A stretch of 64,000 bases of DNA from Callorhinchus milii. Lineage: Eukaryota. The DNA is taken from the NCBI RefSeq assembly GCF_018977255.1, contig NW_024704758.1, forward strand, positions 5,456,001-5,520,000. The letters are read 5' to 3'. The first letter of the stretch is position 1; every line of letters starts with the position of its first letter. The position numbers and the translations under genes were made by a program. Below are positions 18,026 through 48,775 of this stretch, one piece after another. The notes beneath the pieces were generated by a model that did not search any database, was not told where the DNA came from, and saw only the letters and a program-made list of their open reading frames with translations.

Positions 18026-19440
18026 AAAATAATAATAATAATAATCCTTGCTTTTCACGGAACACACTGTAAAGTGAATTGACTGTATATTTGTGGGCAA
18101 ACGCGGCAGCCAATTGCGCACAGCAATGTCCCACAAACAGTCGTAGATTGAAAATGACCAATTTATTATTGTTTTGGGTTTTGAAGGGATTATTATTAGG
18201 CTCTGTGTGGAGTAAGGAAACTTGCCCAAGGTTTCGCCCTCTGCCTGGAATTGAACTCAGGGCTCTGTCCTCGGTCCCCTCCTCTTCACCCTCTATATGC
18301 TCCCCCTCGGTGACATCATCCGCAAACATGGGGTTAACTTCCACATGTATGCGGATGACACCCAACTCTACCTTTCCTCCTCTACTCTCAACTCCACGAC
18401 CACCGATGTCCTGACAGCTGCCTGTCCGACATCGAGTCCTGGACGAGAGACAACTTTCTTCAGCTCAACGTGCGAAAAACCGAGGCCCTCCTGATTGGCT
18501 CACGTCAGCGCCTCCGCACCTCAGGCGCTGACACCATCAGCATCCAAGGCTGCACTCTCCACCTCTCAAAGCCAGTCAGGAACCTCGGCGTTTTGTTCGA
18601 CCCTGAGCTGTCCTTTCTCCCTCACATCCGCACCACAACTGGCACCGCCTTCCATCACCTCCGGAATATCGCCAGATTACGGCACTACCTCACCCCTCAC
18701 GCTGCTGAAACCCTGGTTCACGCCTTTGTCACCTCAAGGCTGGACTATGGGAACTCTCTCCTCGCCGGCCTTCCCGGCACCTCCCTCCACAAGCTGCAGG
18801 TCATTCAGAACTCTGCAGCTCGTGTACTGTCCCGCACCAGGCTTCGGGACCACATCACTCCTACCCTCGCTCGCCTCCACTGGCTCCCCATCCCCCAGAG
18901 GATTGATTTCAAGATCCTCATCCTCACCTACAAGGCCATTCACGGCCTTGCTCCCTCCTACCTCTCCAACCTACTATCCCCCTACCTACCTGCCCGTACC
19001 CTCCGTTCCTCTGGCTCCGGTCTGCTCCACGTCCCCCGCCCCAACCGCCCTACTATCGGTGGTCGGGCCTTCAGCCTCTCAGCCCCGCGGCTCTGGAACT
19101 CCATCCCCCAGTGCCTTCGCCTTGCTTCCTCCCTTTCCTCCTTCAAGGCCGGTCTCAAAACCTTTCTCTTTGACCGTGCCTTCAGCTCCCCTCTCGACTC
19201 TCTTCCTCCTCCTCGCTCCCTCCCTTCCCTCCCCTCACCCTGACCATTTCCCCCTCCTCTCTCCCTCCCTTCCCTCCCCTCACCCTGACCATTTCCCCCT
19301 GCTCGGGTCATGACCCAACTGTGCAGCGCCTTGGGACGTCCTCCTGACGTGAAAGGCGCTCTATAAATGGAATGTTGTTGTTGTTGTTGTTGTTGTTGCT
19401 TGCAAAGCGAGTGCTGTAACCACTGAGCTACAGTACTCCA
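18026..19440 (-). mobile_element. Young tRNA-derived SINE split by the L2 (segments 18026-18261 and 19398-19440)
   Basis: Reverse complement matches the SINE at 61707-62033. The tRNA head continues after the LINE tail (gcttgcaaagcgagtgctgtaaccactgagctacag). Confidence 0.9.
18258..19398 (+). mobile_element. 5'-truncated L2-clade LINE (RT C-terminal part, 3'UTR, (TTG)n tail) inserted into a SINE
   Basis: Encodes QGSVLGP...[10 protein letters not shown]...LHWLP...FKILILTYKA...AFS...LWN. One frameshift near 18417, ORF 18470-19243, a 45-bp duplication in the 3'UTR, stem-loop at 19326-19359, then TTG repeats. Confidence 0.92.
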
Positions 19441-19516
19441 CAAAACGCTGCAGAAAATGGTTCAGACGCAAATCTATTCTTCATCTAGATAATGACCAAA
19501 AACAAATTCTGGTCAG

Positions 19517-20248
19517 AAACAACAAAACAAAATTACATTTGCATAGCGCCTTTCACATCAGGAGGACGTCCCAAGGCACTGGAGAGACAAAGTTACAGAC
19601 CCGAGCTGAAGGTCGGGGTGGGGGAGGGTGGAGGGCAGGGGACGGAGCAGGGAGAATGAAAGCACGGTCGAAGAGGAGGGTCTTGAGGTGGGTCTTGAAT
19701 ATGGCGAGGGAGGGGGCGAGACAGAGGGACTGCAGGATAGAGTTGCAGAGGGTGGGTGCAGAGTGGCAGAAGGCCCGCTCACTGATAGTGAGGCGAGCAA
19801 GGTGGGGGACGTGAAGCAGGCCGGAGACCGTGGAGCGGAGGAAACCAACAGGGTGGTAGGAAGTTAGGAGGTTGGAGAGGTAGGGGGGAGCAAGTCCATG
19901 GAGGGCTTTGAAGGTGAGGACCAGAATTTTGAACTGTAGCCTCTGTGTGATGGGAAGCCAGTGGAGTTGGGCAAGGATGGGGGAGGTAGGGATGTGGAGC
20001 CTAGTGTGAGGGAGGATATGGGCTGCAGAGTTCTGGATGATCTGGAGTCTGTGGAGGGAGGTGTTGGGGCAGCCAACAAGTAGTGAGTTTGCATAGTCGA
20101 GCCATGATATAATGAAGGCATGTATGAGGTTTTCGACGGCCTGCGATGTGAGACAGTGTCGGAGCCGAGCAATGTTGAGGAGGTGGAGGAAGGTAGAGCG
20201 GGTCATGGTGCAGATGTGGGGTAGAAAGAATAGTTGAGGGTCAAACAA
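19517..20248 (-). mobile_element. L2 LINE 3' fragment, minus strand
   Basis: The ORF at 19553-20248 (-) is homologous to the L2 ORF2 C-terminus (LHWLPITQRLQFKILVLTFKALHGLAPPYL) and carries the same stem-loop tail. Confidence 0.9.
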
Positions 20249-20559
20249 TTGTGGGTTTTGTTTGCTCTCCTAACCCTCTGTTAAATGTCAATCCCATTAT
20301 TTTCTGTAATGTCCTCTTAAGTGCCAACTGAGTTCAGTATGGGTAAAGTGTCACATTTGAATGTAAGTAAACGTGCTTCGTAGGGCTTTCTCCTTCCTCA
20401 CTTAGGCATTCATTACCCTTGCTGATGCCTGTCTGTCACCCTTCTTGATGCCTGACTCAAGGTCAAATTACACATAGGTTAAAAGCAAGGTCCAAATGTT
20501 TCCGCACAAATCTATTCTGCAGTCATTAAAAGCAGGTGGAAGTGGAAAAAACCTTCCCT

Positions 20560-22090
20560 GGTTCCATCCATGCTTTCTAACTACCAGCCCATCTCCAACC
20601 TCCCTTTTTGTTCCAAGGTCCTTAAAAGAGTTGTTGCTTCCCAGCTTCAATCATTCCTCTCCTACCGTTCCCTTCACAAGCCCCTCCAATCGGGTTTCTG
20701 TGCTGCTTACAGCACGGAAACTGCTCTGGTCAAGGTGTCGAACAACATCCTGTCCAGCTGTGACCCAGGCTCCTTCTGCCTCCTGGTCCTCCTCAATCTC
20801 TCTGTTGCCTTCAATGCCTTGAGGAGTCCTGTAGCTCTGTGGTTAGAGCACTCACTTTGCAAGTGAGAGACCTGGGTTCAATTCCAGGCAGGGCGAAACC
20901 TTGGGCAACTTTCCTTACTCTACATGCCTAATAATAATCCCTCCAAAACCCAAAACAATAATAAATTGGTCATTTTCAATCCACGACTGTTTGTGGGACA
21001 TTGCTGTGCGCAATTGGCTGCCGCGTTCGCCCACAAATATACAGTCAATTCACTTTACAGTGTGTTCTGTGAAGCACTTTGGGACGTCCTCCCGACGTGA
21101 AAAGCGCTATATCAAATGCAAGGATTATTATTATTATTAATACCGTGGACCACTCCATCCTCCTCCACTGCCTCTCCTCTCACCTCAACCTTCAAGGTTC
21201 TGTTCAGGTCTTATCTCTCACACCATCTCCAATTTGTCTCCACCAACGGTTTCTCTTCCAGCCCCCGCACAGTCTCGTGTTCCCCAGGGCTCTGTCCTCG
21301 GTCCCCTCCTCTTCAATCTTTACATGCTCCCACTTGGTAACATCATCTGCAGACATGGGGTCAACTTCCACATGTATACAGATGACACCCAACTGTATCT
21401 CTCTGCCTCCACTCTCGATTCCAGTACAACTGACATCCTGACAGACTGTCAGGCATCAAGTCCTAGATGAGAGCCAACTTTCTACAGCTGAATGTCAGCA
21501 AGACTGAGGCCCTCCTGATTGGCTCACACCAGTGCCTCCGCACCTCAGGCCTTGGCAGTATCAGCATCCACAGATGCACACTCCACCTCACCAACTCTGC
21601 AGCTCATGATCTCTCCTGCACCAGGCTCTGTGACCCCATCACACCCACCCTTGTCCCCTGGCTCCCCATCCCTCAGAGGATAGAATTCAAAATCCTCATC
21701 CTCACCTTTAAGGCCCTCCATGGCCCTACCCCACCCCACATCTCTGACCCCTATCATCCTGACTGGTCCCTCTGCTCAGCAGGCTCCAGCCTGCTCCATG
21801 TCTCCCGCCCAACCTGCCCTACCATTGGTGGCTGGGCTTTCAGCCTCTCTGCTCCTACCCTTGGTAATCCATCCCACAGTCCCTTCGCCTTGCTCTCTCC
21901 CTTACCTCAATCAAGGCACAAGTTAAGACCCTCCTTTTCGACCGTGCCTTCAGCCACCTTCCTACCTCTCTGCCTTCGCTCAATCCAAACCTGTCCCCCC
22001 TACGCTCGGTCCTGATCCCCGACTGTTCAGCACCTTGGGACGTAAACCCAACGTGAAAGGCACTTTACAAATGTAATTTTGTTGCTGTGA
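20560..22090 (+). mobile_element. Degenerate L2 LINE RT fragment interrupted by a SINE
   Basis: NYQPISNLPFCSKVLKRVV...QSGF...STETALVKV...LLNLSVAFN|TVDHSILL...[11 protein letters not shown]...[10 protein letters not shown], with frameshifts and deletions. L2 tail at 22030-22085. Confidence 0.88.
20823..21138 (+). mobile_element. Young tRNA-derived SINE, full length, inserted in the L2 RT
   Basis: A box, B box (gttcaattcc), Deu-like core, L2-like tail and (TTA)n. Nearly identical to 61707-62033. Confidence 0.92.
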
Positions 22091-31545: not shown

Positions 31546-31648
31546 CCCCAAGGCAGCTTCATCAGCATCTGCCAATCTCAGTGCAAGCAGGAGGACTGAC
31601 GAAGGCAGCGCGCCAGTACACAGAGAGGGGTACCTCCTGCAGCTGTAG
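31546..31648 (+). CDS. USH1C: USH1C alternative penultimate (isoform-b type) exon, coding part ending at an in-exon TAG
   Basis: tatatgtag|C CCC AAG..., continuing phase 2. Encodes (V)PKAASSASANLSASRRTDEGSAPVHREGYLLQL* (human ...EDRAAVHRHGFLLQLEPT). Candidate donors at 31656 (gtaaaa) or 31670 (gtaact). Confidence 0.75.
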
Positions 31649-34600
31649 CCTGAGCGTAAAACTCCAATGGTAACTGAACTCAGCTGAGCTTTGGCATGGA
31701 CTGCTTTTGAAGAGATCATGTAGCTTTAGAGGACATGTGTCTGTGCTTGTCTCATCTGCATCTTCATTTTTAGTACGTCAAAATGCCTTCAGTTCTTTCT
31801 GGACCTGGTTAAGAGTATTCCATTGGATTGGATGTTGGGACACTTTTTCCTTAATACAATTGCTTCATAAGGAATCCTGCTTTTTCAGATGGACGTTAAA
31901 GATCCCATAGCACTTTTCGACAAGACAAGGAGTTTCTTCTGGTACCCTGGCTAACAATTCACCCACCCCAAAAAAATGGTCATTCATTTCTGTTTGTGGG
32001 ACATTGCCGGGCAAATTTGGCTGCTGTGTTTGCATAGAAAACACACAGACTCTACACTTTAGAGTAAATATTGCAAAGCGCTTTGAGATGTCCTCCCAAT
32101 GTGAAAAGTATTATGTCAAATGCAGGATTTTTTAAAATTCACGTCCTGCAAATGAGGAAGTAGCCAGTGCAGTATTCTCAACAATTTACTGGACATGAAA
32201 CCTAATAGGATTTTGCATGAAGAAATCCATTCAGAAATTTCGCTATTTAGACTCCATTATTCAAACCTAATATAATTGTTTCTTGAGTGGCTCACACCTA
32301 ATTTACAGAGCTGTTTAATGCAAAGTACTTTCTTTCAAAGTCGTTCACTTAGGCATAGAGCCAAGAAAGTCTATTTATACGTATATGAATATGGTTCACT
32401 TTTAACAATGGGTTCATGGTTCTCTACAATATATGGGACACATTTCCCGCATTCCTCACCACTGGTGATATTTCCAATGGAAGGGACCCAAGCGCTTTCC
32501 AAGTATCTCTGTTGAGTTTAATAGCAAGAGCTTGAGAACAGTTGGCCTATGATCAGAAGCTCCCTGACCCTGGAAAAGCACAATAATAATCCCAATAATA
32601 ATCCTTGCATTTGGCATAGAGCTGTTCATGTCGGGAAGGCATCCCAAAGTGCTTCACGTGACATAGTGAAGTGTAATGGTTTATAGGCAAATGCCACAGC
32701 CAAATTGATACAGTAATGTCCTAGAAGCAGCCGCAAAACAAATGACCAACAGGGTTGGCTGACTCTCAGGTCTGTCCGAAGATCCTGCCTCCATTAAAAT
32801 CAGTGCAGCCAACGCCAGATCTCAAGCGATTCCTCCCATCAGTGCAGTCACTGGAGCAGGCAGGTCCCAGGCACTAGATAAGTGATATTTCAACTAAATG
32901 ATAGTTTTACAATATGTAACTTTTACCTTTTCCAGAGAGTGTTCTGTATGTGCTCTGACTGTCAGCCCTTCATTATAGTATTGTCCTGTAATGCAGAATT
33001 GTAGGGAAATTGATTTATGTTGACAGTCTCCCTTGTGGACCGTTACAGATCTGTCATAGTTAAATTCCTAGGTCAGAGGCTCGCTTTCCTTGCTTCCTCT
33101 CCTGAAGGCGGACAACCCTGCTGCTTCCATCTGTCCTCTGATACCTCAGTACCAAGGCCAGTTCCTCATATGGGAAGCCAGACAGTCCTTTCTGAGGGGA
33201 TCTCAATGGAGTCAATGCTGTCCTGACCTAACGTCCACACACACGTGTATTTTTGGAGGGTGTGGGGGGCTGGGAGGTTATTGAATAGCAAGGAGTCGTG
33301 GCCGTTGTCCCCTCATTTCCCATTCTTCAGGGCTTTAACCAACAACAAAATTACATTTGTATAGCGCCTTTCACATCGAGAGGATGTCCCAAGGTGCTAA
33401 AAAGCTTAAAGCTTGTTGCAGGGAGTCCAACACTGATTACCATTGCTCTGGCTTGCATCAGATGACTTAGATCATTAGATTGGGACCTTCCGATGAATAC
33501 TAAAATGGGCACTGCTTTTAACCAGGAGAACCATCAGAGGATACCTGTCCAAATCTCCTTTGGGTGAATGGAGAAATCTACTGTACCACCTTTAGCTGAG
33601 CTGCATGTTTCAGAAATTTCACGACATAATAATCACGTGAATATTCCAGTATCCACTTTACATTTACAATCATGATTTACATTTATACAGCACTTTTCAT
33701 GTCAGGAGCACATCTCAAAGCTTCACACAGCTGACTGGGAACCCGAGTGGGGGTATATGGAGGGAAAAGATATGTGGTAAGCATGGAGGGAGGGTTAAGG
33801 TGGAGAGACAGGGATCCATTGCCAGTAGATTGAGTTCCTTTGGCACTGACACACATTCAGTTTTCTTGCTCTGGTTTCTAATTTCAGTGCATTAAATGAG
33901 CAGTTTATTTTTACAGACTTGAAGATACATAAACCTGTTCAATATTACTTATCTTCTGAGTCCAGAACCCTCTCAAAGGAATACAAGAGAAGCATAGCCT
34001 AAGGGCACAACCTGCTGCTCAGAGGAACTGAAAGGCATTTGATATGTCATGCATTACATCCTCATGGCTGGGACTTTCATGTTAAACCCACTGTTTGTGT
34101 TTTTGAGGTTTCTTGCCTTGTTAGCTACATAACATTTCTAAATGTATTCACATCCCATCAAGAGTTGTACAACATTGCACAGGCTGTATAATATATTTCT
34201 GATCAAATAGTAAATTCTAATACAAGGTTCATTCTGACCTCTATTTGCCAATGTTACATAATGGTCCTTAGAGCATTACTGTAAAGGACACTTAATATAT
34301 TTTTTATTTATCAATAAATTTAGGATTGTTTTACAGTACTGAAATCACAATTAGATAGTTATTTACAGCAAGTATATTTAATTTTTTGTGTATTTTTTTA
34401 ACCCTTTTAAAACATATATAAACATGATATTATTTGACGTTTCTGGGTCAAATATTAATTTGAATGCCACACTACTGAACATCGTATTGAAATTTGATGG
34501 TGTATTGGTGACCCAAAGAGCTTGATGGGAGAACAGTCGGGTTTTCTGGAGGGATGAGATCAGATGGCTTGAAGTGCCTTTTCAGCCGAACTGATCTTAT

Positions 34601-34798
34601 GAGAGGAAGGGAATGAAGATGGGGAGAGCTAATCATTCAGAATCAGACTCACAGCATAGCCCTGGCTCCAGCCCATAGGCAGCAACTTGAGAATGGGTTC
34701 CCTTCCAGGAAGCACCAAAGCAAAATCCTTTTATGAAGGAAACATGCCAAGAAAAATTGGAAATCTAGTTAACATGCCTTTTTTTAATATTGTTACAG

Positions 34799-34811
34799 GA
34801 CATTCTTTTGA
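34799..34811 (+). CDS. USH1C: USH1C terminal exon, coding part giving the C-terminal PDZ-binding motif ...EDEVTFF*
   Basis: tattgttacag|G ACA TTC TTT TGA. Spliced to the phase-2 exon ending 29138 it gives V-T-F-F-stop (human harmonin a DDELTFF*). Confidence 0.9.
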
Positions 34812-36618
34812 TGATGAAGATATCCATCCACATAACGCTCCCACTCGCTCACTGGATCCCACTGTGTTTTCGTACAAGCCAGAGTTTTAATAGAAACAAG
34901 CAGTGATGCAGGAATCAGATTTACTTTGATTGCTGCCTCTGAGTTAGAGTAAAGGTGACAATGTTGGCAGATGTTGATTGACAAACCTGCACAAATCCAG
35001 AATCAAAATCAACACATTTGTGTATTTTTTAAGTCCAATAACAGCATTTGGTTGAAACTTTTGATTTTATGTGTCAAATTAGCTTAATTAAAAGCAAACA
35101 CGTAACAGTCCACACTGACAGGCCTCACTTCAGGAATCATTCCCCTTGCTCCTTCCAAATTAACCTTTTCTCCTAATCATTGCAGGAGCTCAAACGTCAA
35201 GAAGACTAGGCTTTTGAGAATAGATTTACTCATGTTTATCAGTCCCCATCACATTATAACAATTTACTGTATCATCGTAAAAGTCCTCTTTAACACTGCT
35301 CTCATTGTGCTGTTTGATTGATTTATACACCAATAAGTTAGTTGAACATATGTGTACAGGACTTGTTGAAGTGATCTGCGCACACTAAGCTCTTGTGATT
35401 CTGTCCCTCGCCAGAGCAGTAGCAGCCTGTGTGCACAACAACCTAGAGTGTTGCTGTCTGATGCTCTGTGCCAGCATTATGAAGCTGCAGCTGTACTTGA
35501 CCAAGGGAAGGGAACTGGGCACTTTCAACAATATTTTCAGGATTAGCCTGATGGAAGTTGCAAAACTACTGTCAGCTTTAACAAAGTGAGAATAATTTCA
35601 CAAATTACACTGAAGAGTTAGCTGATGAAATAATTAACTCTTGCACTTGCATAGCTTAAGCCTTATAACATCGCAAAGCGACTTACAGAGAACTGCTGTC
35701 AAATGTAGTTGCTGGGCTTTGCAGGGTGGAATGCAGCACTGATTGCCATTTCTGAAAATAGATATCACAGAACATAACAGTACAGAAACGGGCCGTTCAG
35801 CCCATCGAGTCTGGTGCTTTTCCCTCTGAAGATGCCATTCATTCTGAATTCACAGAAATCGTTTTGGGTTCAGCATGTGACCCTTTCCTGCAGAATTGCC
35901 ACTCACTGCAACTATATGCCTTGACTGAAAAATCGCAATAGGTTCATCTAATATCCCCTTTGTCATCATGCTCTGCCTGTGAGACATAAGAGAACAGCAC
36001 GGATATGTTTCTGATTAGTTTCAAACCGACACCACAACCAGATAGTAGTTTTCCACCAAACATATTAATGTACAAATTGTAAATTGTTTAAAATCTTTTG
36101 GTCATGACAATTTTCAGAATAAACCCCAGTTGGTAAACTGCTGAAATCAAGCATCTTTGTACGTGTGCTGAAATGCATATTAACAGTTGATTTAATTACC
36201 TGGCAATTAATAGTGGGATGATGTTTGTTGTTATGCCTTCTACTATTGAAGTGTGTGTTCTGGTACAGGTAAGCAATAGTAGTTCTGGGCTGACAGAATA
36301 CATTTCTGCTTTGCGCCAGTAGTTTTGAGTGAGGTGAAGAACAGGCAAGGTGCAGAGAGGATCTTTTGTACTATTCCAACAACTATTGGCCTCAACCTCT
36401 CAAAACACCCCTAAAGCTTTTACTTTTATTTCTTCCCAGGCATCCATTTGATCATCAATGAGGAAATAACCAATTTACAGGCAGATTTGTAATTAGGGAT
36501 TATTATTATGATAATATTATAATATGATGATTGATTATTTTAATTTATTTTAATCAATACTGATTAAAATTAGTTGGAAAATAAAGAAGCCCAGATTTTG
36601 TGAGGTGCTTGTGAGCCT

Positions 36619-37235
36619 TGTTAGAATTTATATTTTTTGTATAATATTAGAATCATGATAGATGTTGCGAACAGGTTAACTTTTAAGTTAAGTATGGGGC
36701 AACCAGACTGAAACCCATGATTGACCCTCAAGATCACGTGAGTGTCTCAAGGACAAGATGTGTACTGCTGCACTGCACGTACGCTCGAGATAACGTGAGT
36801 GTCTCAAGGACAATATGTGGTTGCTGCTGCACCTACACACCATGAGATGTTCACGTGAACCCAATGTGATTTGGGCCATGTGATCCAATGTCTGAATAAT
36901 AATTGGATGTAAGTGAGCATAAAAGTCCATTCAACCCTTTGTTCGGGGTCCCTCCGAGACCGGGTCTCCAAGACAATATCTACTGGTGATGGAAGACTGA
37001 AAACTAGAAGGTAGCTGCGGTTGAAGGAAGACTGAAAGCTTAAACATTGAAGGAAGCCTCCGTAGTGAAGACCTCAAGGAAGACTTATAAACTGGTAGTC
37101 TTGTTTTGTTGGTGGATCTATGAATTGTACTTACTTGCCCATGCCCATCGGGAACTTGAATGGATCCTTGAATTTAATAAACACCACTCTGGTTGCAAAC
37201 AGTAGTTGTGCTTGATTGAAACGTTTTTTCTAACA
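36619..37235 (+). mobile_element. Solo LTR (ERV- or Gypsy-type), 617 bp
   Basis: Begins TGTTAGAA and ends TTCTAACA (8-bp inverted repeat, TG...CA), flanked by GCCT on both sides (36615-36618, 37236-37239). Contains ~57-bp tandem U3-like repeats with CACGTG, CCAAT boxes, TATA-like CATAAAA (36918) and AATAAA (37176). Confidence 0.85.
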
Positions 37236-40206
37236 GCCTTATTAGGATTAGTATGACTGAAGGGCCCATAATATCTGACTCTACCAAGGCTATGCAGCAG
37301 GAAGGAGGCTGAAAGATCATCAGGTAATGGGATCATCACAGATGAAGAAAGCCTTTGACCATTTGATCTCATATACTTTCAGAATAGTCACCCTACCACC
37401 TTCTCATTTACAGATCAAGCTGCATCGCGAATAAGTGCAGAATTGTGACTTCTGTTATCCTTCCTTGTAACTTGTTCTGCATTTGAATTACCATCAGTGT
37501 TTGCACTGGAATTGCCTTCTTATGCATTTGCTTCAGTTTTTTTCTCTCGGTTTCTACTGCCATGAACCCTGTACACATGCCTGAAATATTTATTTAATAG
37601 GTTGAATTACATGCGATCTTTGTTGAAACTGCATTAATTTCAAATAATCCAATGCAATGCCTTCCAAAGTCTAATAAATGTGACTGGTTGCAGACAACGG
37701 CCATCTGCTTAAGTGTTCTTTTATTTTTAGAACAAGTAAAACAGAATGTTTAGTAATAAATTAAACTTTTCAAGAGATGAGTAAAAGCTAATCTCCCCAT
37801 TAATCACAGAGAAGCTGACTTGCCCCAATTCATCTTGTGTTGCAGTAGTGTTACACACAACTATTATGAAGGTAATCAATGCTTGCTTGCTGTGTGGTAG
37901 CACTATTGAAAAGTTTCCAACATTTGGGTTGCATTGCATTTGGGGATAAACTTCAGTGAAGTGACATCCTCACCCAAAGATGTCATGCATAGTTATTAAA
38001 CGTTCAAGAGATGTTCAAGGCAAGAAAACAGGTGAGTCGCAATTTTGTTGCACAGTTTTTTTTGTGCTGATGGTTTTGTGATAGTGCCTTGGACAGGAAA
38101 GAACAGCCACAACTTGCACTTACACAGTGCCTTTCATGCAGGATAGCATCTTGGAGTGCTTAACAGTGGCAGGGACTGAGGCAAGGCCTGGCTTAGTCTA
38201 AAATCTCTTCCCAATGACTATATCTACCTTCCGTCGTTCAGTCCTGTTACTCTGGCCTACCATTTCCCTTTGGGAGCACATCAATTTCATTCTGAAGCAA
38301 TGTACCAATGCAGGGAAAAATGCAGAGTAATTTATGAATTCAAATCCTTAGAAACCATAGGGATTAATCGCATCCTGAGTAATTATGATGATTTTGTCTT
38401 TGTAATTGTTTCTTGCTGGTAATCTTGTTGTACTTACCTTAGATGCTCATTTGCATGGATATTGATAATGGCCAATTTTTCAATGATTTTGCAATTTTTT
38501 CCATGGTTATAACATTCACTGCATTACAAACATGCAATATTATAATATATGATCCTGCATTGAATTTGGTATTGATGCAATACAGAATTCTTATTCAATA
38601 CCATTCCCCACATCACACATCTACTGACAGCCTTGAGTACTTTTGATGTAGCTCTTTGGCACACAATACAGCCAGAACTCGCTCTTCATGCATTTCCATC
38701 CTCTCAACTTGCCGATGCTCAGTACGCACTCCATTGCTGTTCTGGGTAGCCTTTTCACATTAGTCAAGTGGTTTACAGCTTTTTTTGCTCTTATCACAAG
38801 CCTTACTTAAGAAGGTAGTTGAATCCTAATCTAATTTCATGAAAGCGATTGATTGATTCTGCCACTAAATGTGAACATTCAGAATTCACTAACAGTCCAT
38901 GCTTAGCTCTCTCTCCCTTACACCCAGCCTTTGCCATCTGACCTCAATAATGAAACTTCGGCTATGTTTCACAGTTGGAATTATAGGAATACTACATAGT
39001 TTATTGGCTGAGATATTAGACCAAGGGAATAGCTCCGTGTCAAACTGTGCCATTGTTAATTACTCCGAGATGCCAGCCCATGTGCAAGTTGTCTGGGGAA
39101 GCAATAATTCACCATTTCCTTTCTCAATACCATAGTTTACACTTGTTAATGCCCACTAAAGGATTTTCATTAGCGCCAATAATATAATTTGAATTGGAAG
39201 TGAATAATTGTCTGTCTGAGATGGTAGCTATGATTTGACTCTTAAATTAATTCGAGATCTGGTCTGTCAAATGATATTTTTAAATTTATCAGGAGTCAGT
39301 TTTTAAGCAATTTATTTTTAAAAAAAAGAAACTTGGAAAATTATCTGGCTTCATTGCCCTAAGGGCTCAGTGTAATTGCACAGGCAAGAAAATAATTGAT
39401 GTAGCAAGTTTTGCCTGTATTCTTGAAAAAAGAATAATATTGCGAAAGCTGTAACACATCTCAAGTGAGATAATAAACTGCTAAATTTCTACTTTCCTGC
39501 TAGACAGAAATAAATCCAGAAAGGTATTCCTTTTTTTCACATATCCTCAAGTTAGCCATCTTATCTATATACCTGTCTTCCTCCCCATTAACTTAACCTG
39601 TCTGTCTATCTCTACTTATCTACCTCTCTCTACTTCATTGTCTGTCTACATAACTGTACATTTGTATCTGTCCATCTATCTTTCCTCTCTTTTCTCTTTA
39701 TTCTTCTCTGTGTCCTTTTCTGTCTCTCTTAATCTCTAGCTTTCTATCAAATCTACCATAGCTTATCAAACTCATCTCTTTTACCTATCACTGAAGGTCT
39801 GTCTATTGTAGCTTTTCATGCTAAGAACACTAAATTTCCAAGCAACATGACCCAATTCTCTAGAATGATACATTAGCATAATCTGGAACAGGACAGCTAT
39901 ATCCAGTGACGCCACATAAAATCAGATGGTTAATAATGAATACAGTACTTGAATACTGTGTCTGGAAAACTGTATGTGAAAAGGTTCCAATAACAGAGCT
40001 GCGTAGAGAAATTCCACCTGGGTCTAGATTTACTTCTTTTGTTCTGGTTAACACACGTTCAGATAAAATTGGTCATTCACTTCATGGCGATTTGAAAGAC
40101 ATTGGCGTGAGCAAATTGGCTGCTTCTCTACAAAATAGTCACTATTTCCTGTCACTACAGCTTACAGCAAATCCTGTGAGACACTCTGAGACCCTACAAA
40201 AGCCGT

Positions 40207-40450
40207 GGAGTTCTGTAGCTCAGTGGTTAGAGCACTCGCCTTGCAAGCGAGAGACCTGAGTTCAATTCCAGGCAGAGGGCGAAACCTTGGGCAAGTTTCC
40301 TTACTCCACACGCTGTGCGCAATTGGCTGCCGCATTTGCCCACAAATATACAGTCAATTCACTTTACAGTGTGTTCTGTGAAGCGCTTTGGGACGTCCTC
40401 CCGACGTGAAAAGCGCTATATCAAATGCAAGGATTATTATTATTATTATT
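40207..40450 (+). mobile_element. Young SINE copy with an internal deletion, directly after an older SINE remnant (40063-40197)
   Basis: Same head and tail as the 61707 copy. It jumps from ttactccacac directly to gctgtgcgcaatt. Confidence 0.9.
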
Positions 40451-40589
40451 TATCTGTGATGCTTTATAATCCCTTTGCAATCGGAGAGTATCAGACAGCT
40501 TCTGCCTTGACAAGTTTGAACCTTGGTGAACAAAAATAGGGTAAATAAGTAATGATTTAGTTAAATATGTACGAAGCTGGTATCAAGCC

Positions 40590-41450
40590 AGCCTTGTGAG
40601 GTGCTTCTGTCACGTTGGGATACTCGATATACTTGGGTCGCCTGCGCTTGGATTGTAACCCAACAAAACCCACACTGTCCTCTAAATGGGACGTGGCGTG
40701 TTCTGTGTGCGGCTCAGGGAACAAGCGGTGGAGCTGGTCAAGGAGCTGAGAGGACAGGGGAGGTGGTCCCGAACCGCTTGCGCTGCGGTCACGTTTTCGT
40801 GCAGTGACACGAGACGGGAATCAATCAGCGAGGTTTGAGAGAGAGAAAGAGAGAGATAGAGAGATAGAGAGAGGGGGGGGGATAAGCTTGTGATGCGCTT
40901 TGTGCAGTTGAACAGACGAGAATCCTTTGTTAGTCTCTTACCAGCGACTGTCAATCCAGTACCACGGAGAGCGCCCGAGGCTCCATCCGACTCCAGTCAA
41001 CAACACCTCCTCCCAAGAGGCTCCCCATCACCTCTCACCATCCACACAAGTCACCCTCAGTTTTCGAAGGGGGTGAAATAATTCTCCTGGAAATGAAATC
41101 CCAAAACGCTTTCCCCTTCATCCTGAATCCACAGGCGGGACGGTGGGACGTACACCCGGACACCAGCAATTAGAGGGATATCCTGGGATGAGCACATCTA
41201 CAACCTCGACCTCCTTTCCCCAGGTTTAAGGAGAAAATGCTGTTCAGATCTCAACAGGGGATGATGGTTTTCAGGGGCAATTTTTTTTCTCTCTCGTTGC
41301 TGTCACGGTTCTAACACGTTGTAATCTCCCCCGAGGGCTTTCTCTTCTATGAATGCGCGTGTGGGATATTTTATATTCCAGGAATATCTCATCATATTTC
41401 CAGCAAAGCCTCGTATCCTCAGGTGGAAAATGATCACCAGATTCAAAGAG
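40590..41450 (+). promoter_or_regulatory. CpG-enriched promoter-like segment ending in a strong splice donor (GAG|GTAAGT at 41450/41451)
   Basis: Visibly many CpGs against a depleted background, a (GA)n tract at 40837-40873, the RE1, and no recognisable SINE/LINE sequence. Confidence 0.45.
40955..40975 (+). promoter_or_regulatory. RE1/NRSE (REST-binding) element candidate
   Basis: TCCAGTACCACGGAGAGCGCC versus consensus TTCAGCACCACGGACAGCGCC: 18/21 matches with canonical half-site spacing. Confidence 0.7.
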
Positions 41451-42910
41451 GTAAGTTTCTTGTTTTATTGTGGAAAAAAAAGAGCTCTCTGTATTTTGGG
41501 TGGAGGGTTATTGTAACGTGGACTGAAACCGTGTTAATTAGAGATTGCAACGTAATTCGCTTTGTCCTTTACTGAGAGCATTTCAATGTCTTATCCCACA
41601 GTTTGAATCCCACGAGAACAGCGTTAGATATGAAAGGAACCAGTTAAGATCAAGAAAAAAAATAACCTGATTGGGAATGAAACACGATTTTGCTCCTCAA
41701 TTTCCTGGCAGAAGAAAGGGGCATTTTATCCGTGGGAATGCTGGAATAATTTTTTTTCTTAGCAACTAATGAAATCGGGATCTTTCCAATGAATGTGTTG
41801 TTGAAGTGCAAACGGTGCATCTCAACGCATTGTGTGTACATTCAGGAGCTATTGGCGTCCTCTCCAATTGATAGGTTGTGCAATCTTTAAGGACAATTGG
41901 AAATGCATTGCATTTGCCCAGAGTTCAGTTGATTTTGAAATCAGTCCAAATACACACCTGATTCTCTCTCCCCCCCCCCCCCATCACCCCCTCCTCTCCC
42001 CGGGACGGTCAACCCCAACGTGGCCCTGTGGAGGTTGATTGAAATTGACATGTACCCATGGAGGAGCTCAGTGGGTCAGTAGGAACCAATGATGTTGAGG
42101 CAGTGGGAGATGTTGTGGTCGCTTGTTGGTCAGCTGTAGTGAGAAGGAGGTCAGGTTAGCTCCTCGGGGGATAACTTTAACAAAGTCACTTTTATCTGTG
42201 ACCGATATAACATTCCGGAGACATCTGCATGGTCCAGAACATACACCAGAGACGATGCCTTGTTATTTCTGTACGTCGAGGTGAGGATTAGCCTGATTTA
42301 CTTTTGGGGGGAAGGGTAGATCCTCCAGTTCCTCGTCAATATTTTAACCCGTCCAACCTATTCACCCTCTTCTTTCTGAGGAAAAGCTAATATGTTTGTG
42401 TTTAAAATCATCGTTCCACTCGGGAATTGCATGCTCTTAAATTTTGGTTTGTGCTATGGATGGATGAAAGAAGTGAGCCACCTTGGCCATCATCAAACTT
42501 AATCCAGTCTTTTTAAATAATGTATGCAATCAGGAAAGTAGAGTAAGGATCCGGCCGAAAAATGTAGGATACAACCGAACATGGTGTAGTGCAACGATTG
42601 GGGCACAAGATGAATTAAGTTGGGAGGGGCACTGAATTTAAACTTTAAATCTGTAGGTTGTCGGAAGGTAAGACTTGAAGGGGGTGGTGATGATGGGAGA
42701 GAGAAGATTTGTAGGAATGAAAGAGATTAAGTAGGAGATGGTACATTGAGTTGTAATTTCATGATGATAACAATACAGGGCACATTGCACGATACAATAG
42801 GTTATAGTAACAACAGCGGACTGGGGATGGAGCCTCAAATGGCTTCACACAGCTGGACTGGATTAGTACCTGTTTGGTGGAGATATCAATGACTCTGGCA
42901 GTATTGAGTG

Positions 42911-43431
42911 AAACAACAATAAAATTACATTTGCATAGTGCCTTTCACGTAGGTTGGACGTCCCAAGGTGCTGGACAGTCAGTGTTTCGGACCCAAGCTG
43001 GGGGTTGGGATCAGGGAGGGTGGAGGGCAGGGGAAAAGGAGGGCGAATCAAAGGCACGGTCAAAGAGGAGGTTCTTGAGATAGGTCTTCAAGGAGGCAGG
43101 ATAGGGGGCAGGCAGAGGGACTGCGGGATGGAGTTCCAGAGGGCGCGGTCGCGGTGCCTGAAGCTGGGGCACATGAAGCATACTGGAGCCCACTGAGCGG
43201 AGAGAGTGGGCTGGTTGGTAGGAGGTTATGAGGTTCCAGAGGTAGGGGGGAGCAAGGCCATGGAGGGCTTTGAAGGTGAGGACCAGGATCTTGAACTGTA
43301 TCCTCTGTGTAATGGGAAGCCAGTGGAGTGAGGCGAGGATGGGGGCGATAGGGTCATGGAGCCTGGTGCAGGAGAGGTCATGGGCTGCAGAGTTCTGGGT
43401 TATCTGCAGCCTATGGAGGGAGGAGTGGGAG
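42911..43431 (-). mobile_element. L2 LINE 3' fragment, minus strand
   Basis: ORF 43011-43502 (-) contains LHWLPITQRIQFKILVLTFKALHGLAPPYL and the L2 tail. Smaller L2 3' remnants at ~4575-4785 (+), 44297-44515 (-), 25680-25915 (+) and 60040-60355 (+). Confidence 0.88.
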
Positions 43432-46400
43432 AAAAGAGGAAAGGCAGAGCCTGAAGTGAGAGAATTATCATATTTCAGCAGGTGTTCCCACTGAGAACCC
43501 ATAATCAGTACAATATGGCCTTCAGGTGTGTGGCTTTCATACCCTTTATAAACAGTTTACTGCCAGCACCCAACTACAACTTTTTTTTACATTGCGACAC
43601 ATGTACTTCTCTATACGTCTTTCACATTTTTACACATTTACTTGTTTTACACATGTCTTTGCTGCACTAGGGCTGTTCTGTCAAAGGGATGAAAAAGACC
43701 TTTGGTGTTGATAGTGTAAATGAGAGCAGCAATTGGTAATTAAGAAAAAAGTGGTCTGATTTGGAATATCTATTGTATTGGGGCTATAAATGTTTGCTGG
43801 AACAGTAATCCTGACCAGTCAGTGGTAAAATTCACTCTTAATTTATAAAGCAGTTTCCCTCACAACTTTTAAGATTTAGAGAAAAACAGTTTCCAAATGT
43901 ATTTATTTTCCAAAAGTTCAGCACTATCCCTCATTTAAAGACAATGGTATTAAGCCTAAAACCATGTGAAATGTCAGGTCTCCTGTGTCATAAAATAGTT
44001 TGGTCTAAAGTACATATCGGCCACACATATGTAATCTCTCTTCAATAACCAATCATTTTGGATGTCAGTGTCATTGAATTGATATCACTGTCAAATGGGT
44101 ATATTACTATTAACAATCTGCGATGGGACTAAAACTGCAGGCAGTTTGTTTACACATTTGTTTAAGGAAATTTATATCGCATGGGGTGCTTTTCTTTGGT
44201 AATGTGACCAGATTGCGGAGAAATGTAGCAAATGTTTCCTGATTTAGTTCCATTTAGTTCCCTTTTTAGATGCATTTAAAGCTAAGTTGCTAAGTTCAAC
44301 AGCAACAACAAATTGCATTTATATAGCGCTTTTCACGTGAGGAAACAAAGTGGTTTCCACCTGAGATGGGGGTTGGAGTCGAGGGAGGGGGGTGGAAAGT
44401 AAGGGAGGTGGGATGGGAACATGACCATAGGCAAGTTTTGGGATGCGTCTTGAAGAGGGCGAGAGAGGTGGTGAGGCAAAGGGACTCTCGGATGGAGCTC
44501 CAGAGGGTGGGAACAATAATTAATTGCATGGTTGCCTATGATTACCCAGTCACCACACTTTACAGTAAATCTTGCAAAGCACTTTGAGATGTTTCAAAGA
44601 CCTGATAATGAGTTATATTAAATGCAAGGATTATGATTACTGCATTTTTCCTGGGTTGATGCAGTGAATGTAAATGCAATAAAGCTTTCACCCTGCACCA
44701 TTTCATCTGTTTTACATTTGTTTAGTCCAGTGAAAAGTTAACTCTACAGGTGGTAATTAACACTTGAGTCCTTTCATTTGTGGCTTGGACGGGGGAGGCC
44801 TTAGTATGCAAACAGCTGCAGCTGTCTTTCACGCAGAAATCACAAAATCTTAACTAGTGCTGCGGCCAAAGGGAATTGGTTCCTCCACAATGTTAAAATA
44901 CCCTTGGATAACATTGGTATGGATTCTCATGCAATAGGTGTCAGCCTGGCTCAAGTTCAAGCATCTTCACCTCTAGGCCAGAAGGATGTGGGTTCAAGCC
45001 CCACATCAATAATTATAAACTTGTGGTCTAGGCTGCGCTTTAGTACATTGCTATGGGAGTGCCGTGTTATCAGAGGTCAGTCAATCAGGTGAAACATTTA
45101 AACCAAGGGTCCCCTCTGTCTGTTCAGGGGGATGTTAAAGATCCCATGACACCTCTTGAAAAGAAAAGTGAGTTTCTTCTAATGTCTTGTCAAACAATCC
45201 TCTAGAGAAGAAAAAAAACTGATCATTATCTTCAGACTGTTTCTGTGATGCTGCTGTGTGCAAAATTGGTTGCTGTGTTTGCCTACAACAAAGAATCACT
45301 GCACTTCACAGAAATGTTGTGAAATGCTTTGAGACCTTCTTGATTTATAAGCATTATGGAAGGATTATTAGCACAGCCAGGAACCTTGAACTATAATGGA
45401 GTAGGATTTGCAAAACTTAAAGCACATACAGTCAGTTGTTTTGGGTTTACTTAGCCCTGATAGGTTGCAGTTGTGTGATCAAAGAGCCTATTAATATGGA
45501 CTCTGGCATAGTGGGGAAATTGGTGAGTTATTGTTTCTTGTTTTGATGAATGTTTATTTCACTTTGATATAATACTTTGCAATAATTCAAATTAATTGTA
45601 CCTGCCAGACTATTATTAATGCTGTGTATCAGACTGAGCTAATTAAAGGGGCAGGCTCCGCCAGGGGAATTTTCTGCTCCGTGTATGAGGCATTGATCTG
45701 TTTTTCAACAATTATGTTGGCCACTATGGTATACAATCAAGAAGGAGGCTCAGCCAAGACTGAGTTGTGGTCAGTTGTGACTTGGAGTTTAAGACCATAA
45801 CCTTGTAACTCGGAGGTGAGAGTCTGAGCAAGTGAGCCGGGCTGACACCATATAACATTCACTTCATTTTCAATTCATCTCCTACCAAGAATTGTGTGCC
45901 CTTATTTTTACACGAGAGGCCCTATCCAAATTTAAGTTATCATAGCTAAAAGTAAGGAATTTTAAGAAGGTCTTGTGGTTTTGACTCATGTAAAAACAAA
46001 GCCCGATTTTGGTGCTGTGTGAGAAACTTCAAGCTAATGTACTGTTCTGGGCAGTGTGGCTACTTTGGTTTATAAGAACTGTGAATTTTCACAGTTTAAA
46101 GAACGGCCCATTTGGCAGCTCAAACCGACAAGATGTATGGGCAGAACACGAGAAAGGTGCTATTCTACAGTCCTTTGGACTGACGAGCCAGCAAGTTATT
46201 TTGAGAAGCAATGGCTTTCCCTGCACTGAGCTAGGATCAAATTAACACTTGGTGCAAATGTGCCTATGTGAGTCAGCCACCTGTCAATGCCTGTAGGTAG
46301 GGGCGTGCTGTTGAATGTGTGTTTAATCTGATTAAAGGATTCCTTCAGGTTAGTTATCCGAATTCTACTACATGATGATTAATGGGCCAATGACCTTTTT

Positions 46401-48059
46401 TGAATCTGATAAATTAGTTTTTTTAGGTTAATTTTAAAACTTTTAAAAGCTTGCATTGAGTGTTGCAATTGAAAGGTGTCTGCATGTGGAAACTAAAGTA
46501 GGGAATGAAATGCTTGTAATTTACTATCAGTCAATCATTCGGAGGGTCCCAGTGATCTGCTTCTTCACCAGGAAGAGGCCAGTCAGGAATATGTTGGATG
46601 TAACTGGAAACCTAAAAGTGGTGTCTTGTGCAGCAAACAGAATAAATGGAATATGATGCATTGATTCCGGGGCAGGGCCAATAAATGGTAGGCAAGTTTA
46701 CTTATTCCACGTGCCTCTATTTACCCAGCAGTAAGTAGGAACCCAGTTTTTAGTCAATTGGCAGATTGCTTTTTCAGGACTAATAATGTCGCACAGCCAC
46801 ACAATGCCAAGGCTTTTGTGGAATACAAATATACAAACCAGAAGGCAAAGAGGCAATAGAACATTTTAGATGTAAATAGTTTATGCATAGAGTGGCCAAT
46901 ATATTGAACAGTTTGCCCCAGAGAGGCAATGAAGAGTGCTACCATGGATGGGCTGGAAGGAATTCAATATTTTTTGGCACAGAAAGGAGATTTGAAGGGG
47001 GTAAACAATTTACACGTATATAGTTCTTACACTTTAGGAGGACACCCCAAGGTGCTTAAAATGGCGGTGGGGGGGGAGACCAAAGTGCAGGCAAAGAGAT
47101 AGGTTTTGAAACAGAACTTGAATAAAGTGAAGAAGACTGAAGTCAGAGGGTCTCTGGGATGGAGTTCCAGAGAATAGGGGCAAATAGACTAAAAACCCGT
47201 TAAGTGACATAGGAAATGGGACAGCCCAGTGGACTCTTGGGTGGTCCTGGTCCTCGACATTAATATTCCTATATTCGTAAATCCCTTTGTAGGTGTGCAC
47301 ACAGGGAGAAGGGAATAGAGAATATGCAAGAGGGGGTTATAAAGGGAGTCGACCCATGTGGAGGATAAACATTGGCAATGACTCGTTGGGCCAAATGGCT
47401 TCCTATAACATTCTATGTAATTTTAAGTCGAGGGGAAACAGTGGGGAGGGAGGGAGGAAGACATAAAGCAGAGGGACGGTCCTTTAGGTCTGTTCTCACA
47501 CTAATCCCATCGTTAACCCTGGAGGGTTCTGTCCTGCAGAGTGTTACTGCTCTCTATAGATGCGACAAGAAAAAAAGAGTAATCGTACAGTGAGTTATTT
47601 TGTATATTTGCGGTACAGTATTTTTTTTTCCTGCGTTGCTACTATATTGATATGGTGATGGAGTTGTGCAATCATTAATTCCCGGTGCCATTTCCCGAAG
47701 CTGCCTTTGTTTTGGGGACATTCCTCGTGAAAAAGGCTCTTTACGAATGCAAAATGAAAACTGCTGCAGACAACCATCATAATTGCATCAATTTAGTTCC
47801 ACATCGGGAGGACATCCCAGTGAAGGCTCCTTAGTTGGGGGGTTGGAGTCAAGAGGGGTAGAGGGCAAAAAGGGGGACGGGGGTGGGGAGGGTGACTAAA
47901 GAGAAAGAATATTGAGACAGTAACAGTATAACCGTAAATCCCAGCGTTCAGAGAGCGGAACACTCACTCACTCACATTCAGACTGAAAATAAGTCCACTC
48001 GGGTCACAGCAGATTTTTTTTGTTGTTCATCTGAGGCTTTGCGCACCCAAAGGAATGGT

Positions 48060-48627
48060 TGGATTCCCGGGGTGGGGGGGGGGGGGGTGGGGGGTGTCGG
48101 GTCTCCCGGGGTGTGGGTGGGGGGGGGGGGTGTGGGGGGTGTCGGGTCTCCCGGGGTGTGGGTGGGTGTATGGAGGGGGGTTGGGGGGTTGGTGGCTGTG
48201 TGCAGGGCTGACTGTGTCGGGGGCGGCTCTGCAAACCTACTCAGACCCACACAACTCGATCCCCCAAGTTGGGACCGGGGGGTCAGTCAGTCACAGTCAC
48301 ACAGTCACTGTCAGTCACTGATGTAAATGAGAGGAATGGATCTCCGCACTCGTCAGTCAGGAGATCGCTGTCAGTTCATTCACAGCTCGTCCCGTCTGCG
48401 ATCCTCATCCCTTTACCCCCCCACCCCCACCCCCACCCCACCACCAACCCCAACCCCCCACACCCCCACACCCCCTCTTCCCTCCCTTCAACGATAGACA
48501 TGTGTTTTCCTTCCTGAGAATGCGCTAAACCTTTTTTTCTCTCCTTTCTTCTTGTTGCCCCCCCCCCCCCCCTCCTCCTCCTCCTTCCTCCTCCTCCGTG
48601 GATTGTGCTCAGACCCCCAGTGCCACC
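48060..48627 (+). promoter_or_regulatory. ABCC8 proximal GC-rich promoter/5'UTR region with G-quadruplex-prone tandem repeat
   Basis: G-run repeats of ~46 bp (GGGGGTGTCGGGTCTCCCGGGGTGTGGGTGG) at 48067-48170, a cluster of TCAGT/CAGTCA motifs at 48282-48376, then C/pyrimidine tracts up to the ATG. Confidence 0.5.
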
Positions 48628-48775
48628 ATGTCCTTGGCTTTCTGTGGCAATGACAACGACACGGCGGCTTACAACGTGGACCAGGGGGTCCTCAACAACG
48701 GCTGCTTCGTGGACGCGCTCAATGTGGTCCCACACGTATTCCTGCTCTTCATCACCTTCCCCATCCTATTTATAG
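48628..48775 (+). CDS. ABCC8: ABCC8 (SUR1) coding exon 1, 148 nt
   Basis: Kozak-type GCCACCATG start. Encodes [49 protein letters not shown](G), donor G|gtaagc. [10 protein letters not shown] and LNVVPH are SUR1-type. Cys6, Cys26 and the N10 sequon are retained. Confidence 0.96.

What the first reader, a model, noticed from the sequence alone, without database searches (positions are those of the whole stretch)
40955..40975. Near-consensus RE1/NRSE in a CpG-rich segment 7.7 kb upstream of the ABCC8 ATG
Seen: TCCAGTACCACGGAGAGCGCC matches 18/21 of the RE1 consensus with canonical spacing, inside a non-repeat CpG-rich stretch. Known: REST silences RE1-bearing genes outside neurons and endocrine cells, and SUR1 is the neuronal/islet K-ATP regulatory subunit. 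Inference: an ancient REST switch may restrict ABCC8 (or possibly the neighbouring USH1C) to neuroendocrine or sensory cells in this lineage.
Basis: partly seen in the sequence, partly recalled or inferred. Interest (0 to 1): 0.7.

Follow-up and report, generated by a model that had tools for sequence, protein, structure and literature searches.

The report
REST site at overlooked SUR1 exon
A good match to the docking site of the gene silencer REST lies 455 bases before a small, overlooked exon that is predicted to give the sulfonylurea receptor SUR1 a 12-residue longer start, as annotated in many sharks and bony fishes, so REST likely keeps this upstream start of the gene off outside nerve and hormone cells.

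Summary
The RE1 match is real, in unique sequence and not LINE-derived, though only mid-strength: all three mismatches hit core positions (about 23 bits on a published matrix). The site is 7.7 kb from the annotated ABCC8 ATG but only 455 bp before an unannotated upstream coding exon (ATG 41430, perfect donor after 41450). Spliced to the CAG 15 nt before the usual ATG, this exon would add 12 residues. A matching extension is annotated on SUR1 in 24 sharks, rays, ray-finned fishes and lungfish, in 0 of 11 clustered elephant-shark models, and in no tetrapod protein fetched. The CpG-rich patch is therefore probably ABCC8's upstream promoter, with the RE1 close to it. Human REST ChIP tables already show a peak at the ABCC8 promoter in 9 cell lines; it is not conserved in mouse. 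USH1C ends 4.4 kb upstream and has no support as a target. The splice, REST binding, and conservation of the RE1 itself were not shown. The scan noted RE1s beside other genes in other genomes before, but not at this locus.

The parts
40955..40975 (+). Canonical-spacing RE1/NRSE, mid-strength
   Evidence: 1 of 9 full-length pattern matches in the genome, 2 in the reversed control; 26.6 bits; about 22.8 bits by differences
40460..41700 (.). CpG-rich, mostly unique patch spanning the RE1 and the upstream exon; inferred upstream promoter of ABCC8 (transcription start not mapped)
   Evidence: o/e 0.55-0.95 in 200-bp bins from 40501 to 41700, window median 0.34
41430..41450 (+). Coding end of an unannotated upstream ABCC8 exon: ATG plus 6 codons (MITRFKE), followed by the donor GTAAGT; the 5' limit of the exon is unknown
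   Evidence: only AGGTAAGT on the + strand of the window; best of 9430 stop-free 7-codon frames against the extensions of other species, 21.5 vs 11.2 for the next
41451..48612 (+). Predicted first intron of the long ABCC8 form, ending in a long pyrimidine tract and CAG
   Evidence: the splice itself was not observed
48613..48627 (+). Five in-frame codons (TPSAT) between the predicted acceptor and the usual ATG; match SPSST in the annotated extensions
48628..48775 (+). ABCC8 (SUR1) exon carrying the usual start codon
34799..36594 (+). USH1C last exon (Thr-Phe-Phe-stop) and 3'UTR; minor pieces run on to about 37072
   Evidence: predicted acceptor; an RNA-type contig joins at exactly 34799 and ends at 36594, after AATAAA at 36580
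40205..40459 (+). tRNA-derived SINE, not part of the element
40832..40885 (.). (AG)n microsatellite 70 bp upstream of the RE1

Best explanation
The 21-mer matches the REST motif and lies 455 bp before a conserved upstream ABCC8 exon, so it is likely a REST-bound silencer of an upstream ABCC8 promoter whose transcript is predicted to encode SUR1 with 12 extra N-terminal residues. Shown: the motif, its unique non-LINE context, the CpG-rich patch, the exon's ATG and donor, the in-frame acceptor, and the matching extension in other fishes. Inferred: transcription starts in the patch and splices 41450 to 48613; REST binds the site in non-neuronal, non-endocrine cells and recruits its co-repressors (Sin3-HDAC and CoREST, recalled); in neurons and islet cells, which lack full-length REST, the promoter is released. 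Whether a second, REST-independent promoter exists near 48 kb is open.
For: Exon: predicted from the donor and acceptor before any protein was checked, then matched by 35 of 141 SUR1 proteins that carry the usual N-terminus (29 by a fixed pattern, 6 by eye), from 24 species: 8 cartilaginous fishes, 15 ray-finned fishes and a lungfish. Most are 12 residues long, as predicted. The peptide ranks 1 of 9430 frames in the intergenic region. Site: non-repeat RE1-type matches are enriched in this genome (206 vs 30 in the control; 22 of the first 30 loci are not LINE). The site beats 15 of 24 leave-one-out scores. A rat orthologue of a validated human NRSE shares its first 14 bases. Target: REST peak labelled 'prot' (read as promoter) of ABCC8 in 9 human cell lines (file cut, so a lower bound out of 16 cell types); 18 of 139 rows in the table part read score higher than it. 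Abcc8 rises in Rest-knockout mouse pancreas (0.50 log2, adjusted p 0.0018).
Against: The estimated score of about 22.8 exceeds only 1 of the 33 validated human sites in the table part read, so binding may be weak. 6-10 chance sites of this quality are expected per genome, and the full-length pattern was written to include this site (9 vs 2). 0 of 11 clustered elephant-shark ABCC8 models carry the extension, and no spliced contig was seen. Seven ATGs lie between the RE1 and the exon's ATG, so the exon's 5' end is uncertain. The human peak is non-conserved in mouse, and I did not see whether it holds an RE1. In mouse pancreas Kcnj11 rises by the same amount as Abcc8, endocrine cells increase, and Abcc8 appears only in the expression and GO files (2 of 11 searched), so that rise may be indirect. 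abcc8 is absent from the 5 Xenopus NRSE supplementary files searched (gene naming not checked).
Confidence: 0.62

Rival explanations
1. The exon is real, but the RE1 match is a chance or weak site with no measurable effect on ABCC8.
For: Three core mismatches; low end of validated scores; 6-10 chance sites per genome at this score; no other match of this exact core class among the first 100 of 206 rows.
Against: 0.0004 expected per window. The free positions favour a real RE1 by 6-9 fold. It lies within 0.5 kb of an exon of a gene whose human promoter is REST-bound.
Confidence: 0.22
2. The site binds REST and dampens ABCC8 at a distance through the usual start region near 48 kb, because the upstream exon is vestigial or rarely used in this species.
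For: All 11 clustered elephant-shark models lack the extension; 48.0-48.7 kb is GC-rich like a promoter; no junction was seen.
Against: ATG, frame, donor and acceptor are all intact and the peptide is 5 of 7 identical to shark extensions. The acceptor side lay in a stretch where contigs were cut at repeats, so could hardly show the junction.
Confidence: 0.1
3. The site regulates USH1C from 4.4 kb beyond its poly(A) site.
For: The USH1C 3' end is near, and a second, weaker RE1-like match lies in its last intron (33145).
Against: The USH1C start is over 40 kb away; no USH1C rows in the human or mouse peak tables searched; no significant change in Rest-knockout pancreas (adjusted p 0.13).
Confidence: 0.04
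4. Origin rather than function: the site descends from a LINE copy, since all three deviations equal the commonest LINE-borne letters.
For: 19 of 30 and 8 of 30 pattern loci are LINE copies; C2, T6 and G15 are the commonest letters in 27 LINE sites; LINE2-borne RE1s are known in human (PMC1557810).
Against: The flanks score like non-repeat sites (-6.1 and -14.8 bits, while every LINE site has a flank of 13.4 or more, LINE sites scored against their own profile; leave-one-out agrees). The site differs at positions where the LINE copies are invariant (T11 and A19 in 27 of 27). The LINE profile finds no hit there.
Confidence: 0.05

Closest known systems
Canonical RE1/NRSE bound by REST (PMC1794552 table of validated sites; PMC1557810)
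   Same: 21-bp motif, two half-sites with a 2-bp spacer, canonical 3' tail, next to an ion-channel subunit gene of neurons and islets
   Different: Three core deviations put it near the bottom of validated scores; binding untested
Human REST peak at the ABCC8 promoter, hg19 chr11:17,499,574-17,500,028 (PMC4055426 Table S2; PMC4499139 Table S2)
   Same: Same gene, upstream side, close to a promoter
   Different: The human peak precedes the exon with the usual ATG. It is non-conserved in mouse, which has two other Abcc8 peaks. Orthology to the shark site is untested, and none of the papers read discusses it.
12-13-residue N-terminal extension on SUR1 in automatic annotations of sharks, rays, ray-finned fishes and lungfish
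   Same: Same length, same motif, junction at the same place
   Different: Not annotated in this species. No paper on it among the 25 of 51 papers listed (listing only), and no link to REST found.
LINE2-borne RE1s (PMC1557810)
   Same: Shares three variant letters with this genome's LINE-borne form
   Different: No LINE flank; spacer and tail are canonical, not LINE-like

Membership tests
Canonical RE1/NRSE | Two half-sites with a 2-bp spacer in a 21-bp motif | tested here: met
Canonical RE1/NRSE | Matrix score above a published threshold | tested here: met
   About 22.8 bits, estimated by hand from score differences in PMC1794552 (thresholds 5 and 10). The 0.91 PSSM of PMC1557810 was not available as text.
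Canonical RE1/NRSE | Fits the classic regular-expression consensus NTYAGMRCCNNRGMSAG | tested here: not met
   Differs at positions 2 and 6. Rodent orthologues of validated sites do likewise, and PMC1557810 reports that non-consensus sites bind REST, so this is not a strict requirement.
Canonical RE1/NRSE | Excess over chance | tested here: met
Canonical RE1/NRSE | Bound by REST and represses a promoter | not testable with these tools
   needs EMSA, ChIP or a reporter
Canonical RE1/NRSE | Conserved at the orthologous position | not testable with these tools
   no other vertebrate genome held
Canonical RE1/NRSE | REST gene present in the genome | tested here: inconclusive
   No multi-zinc-finger frame found in 280 kb beside two RNA-polymerase subunit genes. 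Indirect: motif enrichment and an unchecked scan note.
Upstream (first) coding exon of ABCC8 | ATG, open frame, donor and in-frame acceptor | tested here: met
Upstream (first) coding exon of ABCC8 | Peptide conserved in orthologues | tested here: met
Upstream (first) coding exon of ABCC8 | Spliced into mRNA in this species | tested here: inconclusive
   no junction listed; contigs were cut at the acceptor side and tissues are unknown
CpG-island promoter | At least 200 bp, GC over 0.5, o/e over 0.6 (recalled loose rule) | tested here: met
   691 bp, GC 0.51, o/e 0.70; fails the stricter GC 0.55 rule
LINE2-borne RE1 | Flanks homologous to the LINE reverse-transcriptase region | tested here: not met

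The most novel reading that the evidence does not exclude
Jawed vertebrates ancestrally had a REST-gated upstream ABCC8 promoter that makes a SUR1 with a basic 12-residue extension on its extracellular N-terminus, giving neurons and islet cells a K-ATP subunit distinct from the short form. Fishes keep it; tetrapods lost the coding exon but kept REST control of ABCC8 through new sites.
Probability: 0.25. Interest if true: 0.62.

Novelty: new member of a known kind. Interest (0 to 1): 0.42.

Why it matters
An RE1 beside an ion-channel gene is ordinary, and REST occupancy of human ABCC8 is already in public ChIP tables. What is new is the placement. The site sits at a deeply conserved upstream exon that I did not find described in print and that changes the SUR1 N-terminus in fishes. 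It corrects the gene model here and gives a direct test, for example in zebrafish or catshark if they carry the exon, of whether REST selects between SUR1 forms and how old REST control of the K-ATP channel is. The SUR1 N-terminus is extracellular and has no cleaved signal peptide (recalled), so a basic extension could alter membrane insertion or trafficking (inference, untested).

Tried and rejected
LINE origin of the site: tested and rejected. RNA support for the upstream exon: no RNA holder is on record. Contigs of three RNA-type runs and one run of unrecorded kind, laid on 34000-48665, gave no junction from 41450 among the 15 of 547 joints shown; contigs were cut at repeats on the acceptor side and the ABCC8 coding exons were not covered, so the splice stays open. 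Run X1 covers five short pieces between 41600 and 45849 at depth 2.5-4.9, which could be intron RNA or DNA carry-over; not used. No difference was listed inside the site in the second individual, but 15 rows were hidden; not used. REST gene by synteny: not found. CTCF-like and RFX X-box scans (motifs recalled): none in 29.1-48.6 kb. Rfam: only the SINE's tRNA head. The sigma-70 scan is irrelevant to a vertebrate. Pfam gave no hit on five single-exon pieces. Scan notes by place and by sequence: nothing. Paper searches for a REST-ABCC8 or alternative-first-exon report listed no such paper; three candidates opened had only reference-list or unrelated mentions. Supplementary file 1 of PMC4499139 and of PMC8415321 could not be searched, Table S2 of PMC4055426 is cut, and bioRxiv supplements are closed; these could hold further ABCC8 or USH1C rows.

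Full report
Observation. The 21-mer lies at 40955-40975 on the + strand with three mismatches to the recalled consensus. It is the only match in the window, and 0 of 100 shuffles gave one. Harmonin exons run from 575 to 29139 (the best protein hit is 99% identical and named Callorhinchus milii). A b-type exon ends at 31648 and the last exon starts at 34799. An RNA-type contig joins at exactly 34799 and ends at 36594. The downstream gene is ABCC8, ATG at 48628. The site is thus 4.4 kb past the USH1C end and 7.65 kb before the annotated ATG.

Chance and strength. Genome-wide, the core pattern gives 288 matches against 22 for its reversed control, but 19 of the 30 loci fetched are copies of a LINE, whose reverse-transcriptase motif PISNLPFLSKVLE spells an RE1-like core on the other strand. 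Requiring a pyrimidine at position 18 gives 206 against 30, with 22 of 30 loci non-repeat. A full-length pattern, written to include this site, gives 9 against 2. On a matrix from 24 non-repeat sites (27 LINE loci, this site and the tail-selected loci left out) it scores 26.6 bits, above 15 of 24 leave-one-out scores, with 0.0004 expected per window and 6-10 per genome. From score differences in the table of PMC1794552, I estimate 35.4 - 4.3 - 5.2 - 3.1 = about 22.8 bits (hand estimate, roughly plus or minus 1). That is above the paper's thresholds but above only 1 of the 33 human sites in the part read. All three mismatches are in core positions. The flanks carry no LINE signal. So it is a real but mid-strength RE1.

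What lies beside it. The CpG-rich patch runs from about 40.5 to 41.7 kb. It contains the only perfect + strand donor octamer of the window, after 41450 (alone not significant, 0.65 expected in the shuffled intergenic region). An ATG at 41430 gives seven codons up to that donor. A long pyrimidine tract and CAG end 15 nt before the usual ATG, in frame. This predicts a 12-residue extension, which I then looked for in SUR1 proteins. Of 163 proteins fetched, 141 have the usual N-terminus; 35 of these carry a matching extension (29 by a fixed pattern, 6 by eye), 20 carry unrelated extensions and 86 none. The 35 come from 8 cartilaginous fishes, 15 ray-finned fishes and a lungfish. Against ten such extensions, the peptide at 41430-41450 scores 21.5, the next of 9430 frames 11.2. 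The genomic sequence directly before the five linker codons does not encode it, so it must come from a separate exon. None of the amphibian, turtle or lizard proteins fetched has it, and no bird or mammal protein was returned. Turtle models read Cys-Ala-Gln just before the linker, as the genomic frame does here, which hints that the acceptor sequence persists. 0 of 11 clustered elephant-shark models have the extension. These are automatic annotations. The junction was not observed here, and the transcription start is unmapped; seven ATGs lie between the RE1 and the exon's ATG.

Target. The RE1 ends 455 bp before that ATG. In human, a REST peak labelled 'prot' for ABCC8 is called in 9 cell lines (table cut) and scores 484 in ES cells, with 18 of the 139 rows of the part read scoring higher. 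It is marked non-conserved in mouse, which has two other Abcc8 peaks. USH1C has no rows in either table. In Rest-knockout mouse pancreas Abcc8 rises (adjusted p 0.0018) and Ush1c does not significantly (0.13). Kcnj11 rises equally and endocrine cells increase, so the effect may be indirect; Abcc8 was found in only 2 of 11 files searched, the expression and GO tables. The Xenopus NRSE supplements have no abcc8 row.

Mechanism. Most likely (0.62) REST binds this site and silences the upstream ABCC8 promoter outside neurons and endocrine cells. The exon is about 0.9 likely real, and REST binding about 0.75 likely. Rivals are a non-functional match (0.22), action at a distance with a vestigial exon (0.10) and USH1C as the target (0.04). 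LINE origin (0.05) is a separate question of origin.

What I saw of each paper. PMC2926608: passages. PMC4430910: abstract, outline and supplement search. PMC4499139: passages, supplement search and one table part. PMC4055426: passages and supplement rows. PMC1557810: passages and section 15. PMC1794552: passages, section 6 and part 2 of 2 of the supplement. PMC8415321: passages and supplement rows. PMC5518225, PMC13310861, PMC1847805: passages, nothing relevant. All others: search listings only. Seven searches listed no paper on REST control of ABCC8 or on this exon; the library lacks most subscription papers. The co-repressors, SUR1 topology, the CpG-island rules and the label L2/CR1 for the LINE are recalled.

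Verdict. The RE1 is a new member of a known kind, at a gene already REST-bound in human data. The added value is the conserved, unannotated upstream exon that makes the site promoter-proximal and possibly isoform-selective. Interest 0.42.

Noticed in passing
window 33145-33165 (+): Second, weaker RE1-like match (20.3 bits on the in-genome matrix; 0.03 expected per window) in unique sequence in the last USH1C intron.
   Followed up: partly
G000, e.g. L004, L015, L027, L029: A LINE family carries an RE1-like core in its reverse-transcriptase frame; 19 of 30 core-pattern loci are such copies, suggesting well over 100 in the genome. Human LINE2-borne RE1s bind REST (PMC1557810); binding of these was not tested.
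   Followed up: partly
window about 31560-31648 (+): A harmonin b-type C-terminal exon, matching bird proteins (74% over 19 residues), is present before the Thr-Phe-Phe last exon.
   Followed up: partly
P0077, P0134-P0143: Elephant-shark SUR1 models end in two different C-termini, in line with an earlier scan note on alternative last exons.
   Followed up: no
P0144 (gar) vs window 41385-41429: The gar model's longer N-terminus resembles the in-frame translation just upstream of the small exon's ATG here, hinting that the exon's 5' part is conserved too.
   Followed up: no
G000:C4:2820873-2821016 and C8:12735849-12735897: Tandem RE1-type matches (three within 150 bp; two within 50 bp).
   Followed up: no
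window 18359-22015: Cluster of LINE reverse-transcriptase fragments and SINEs in a USH1C intron.
   Followed up: no
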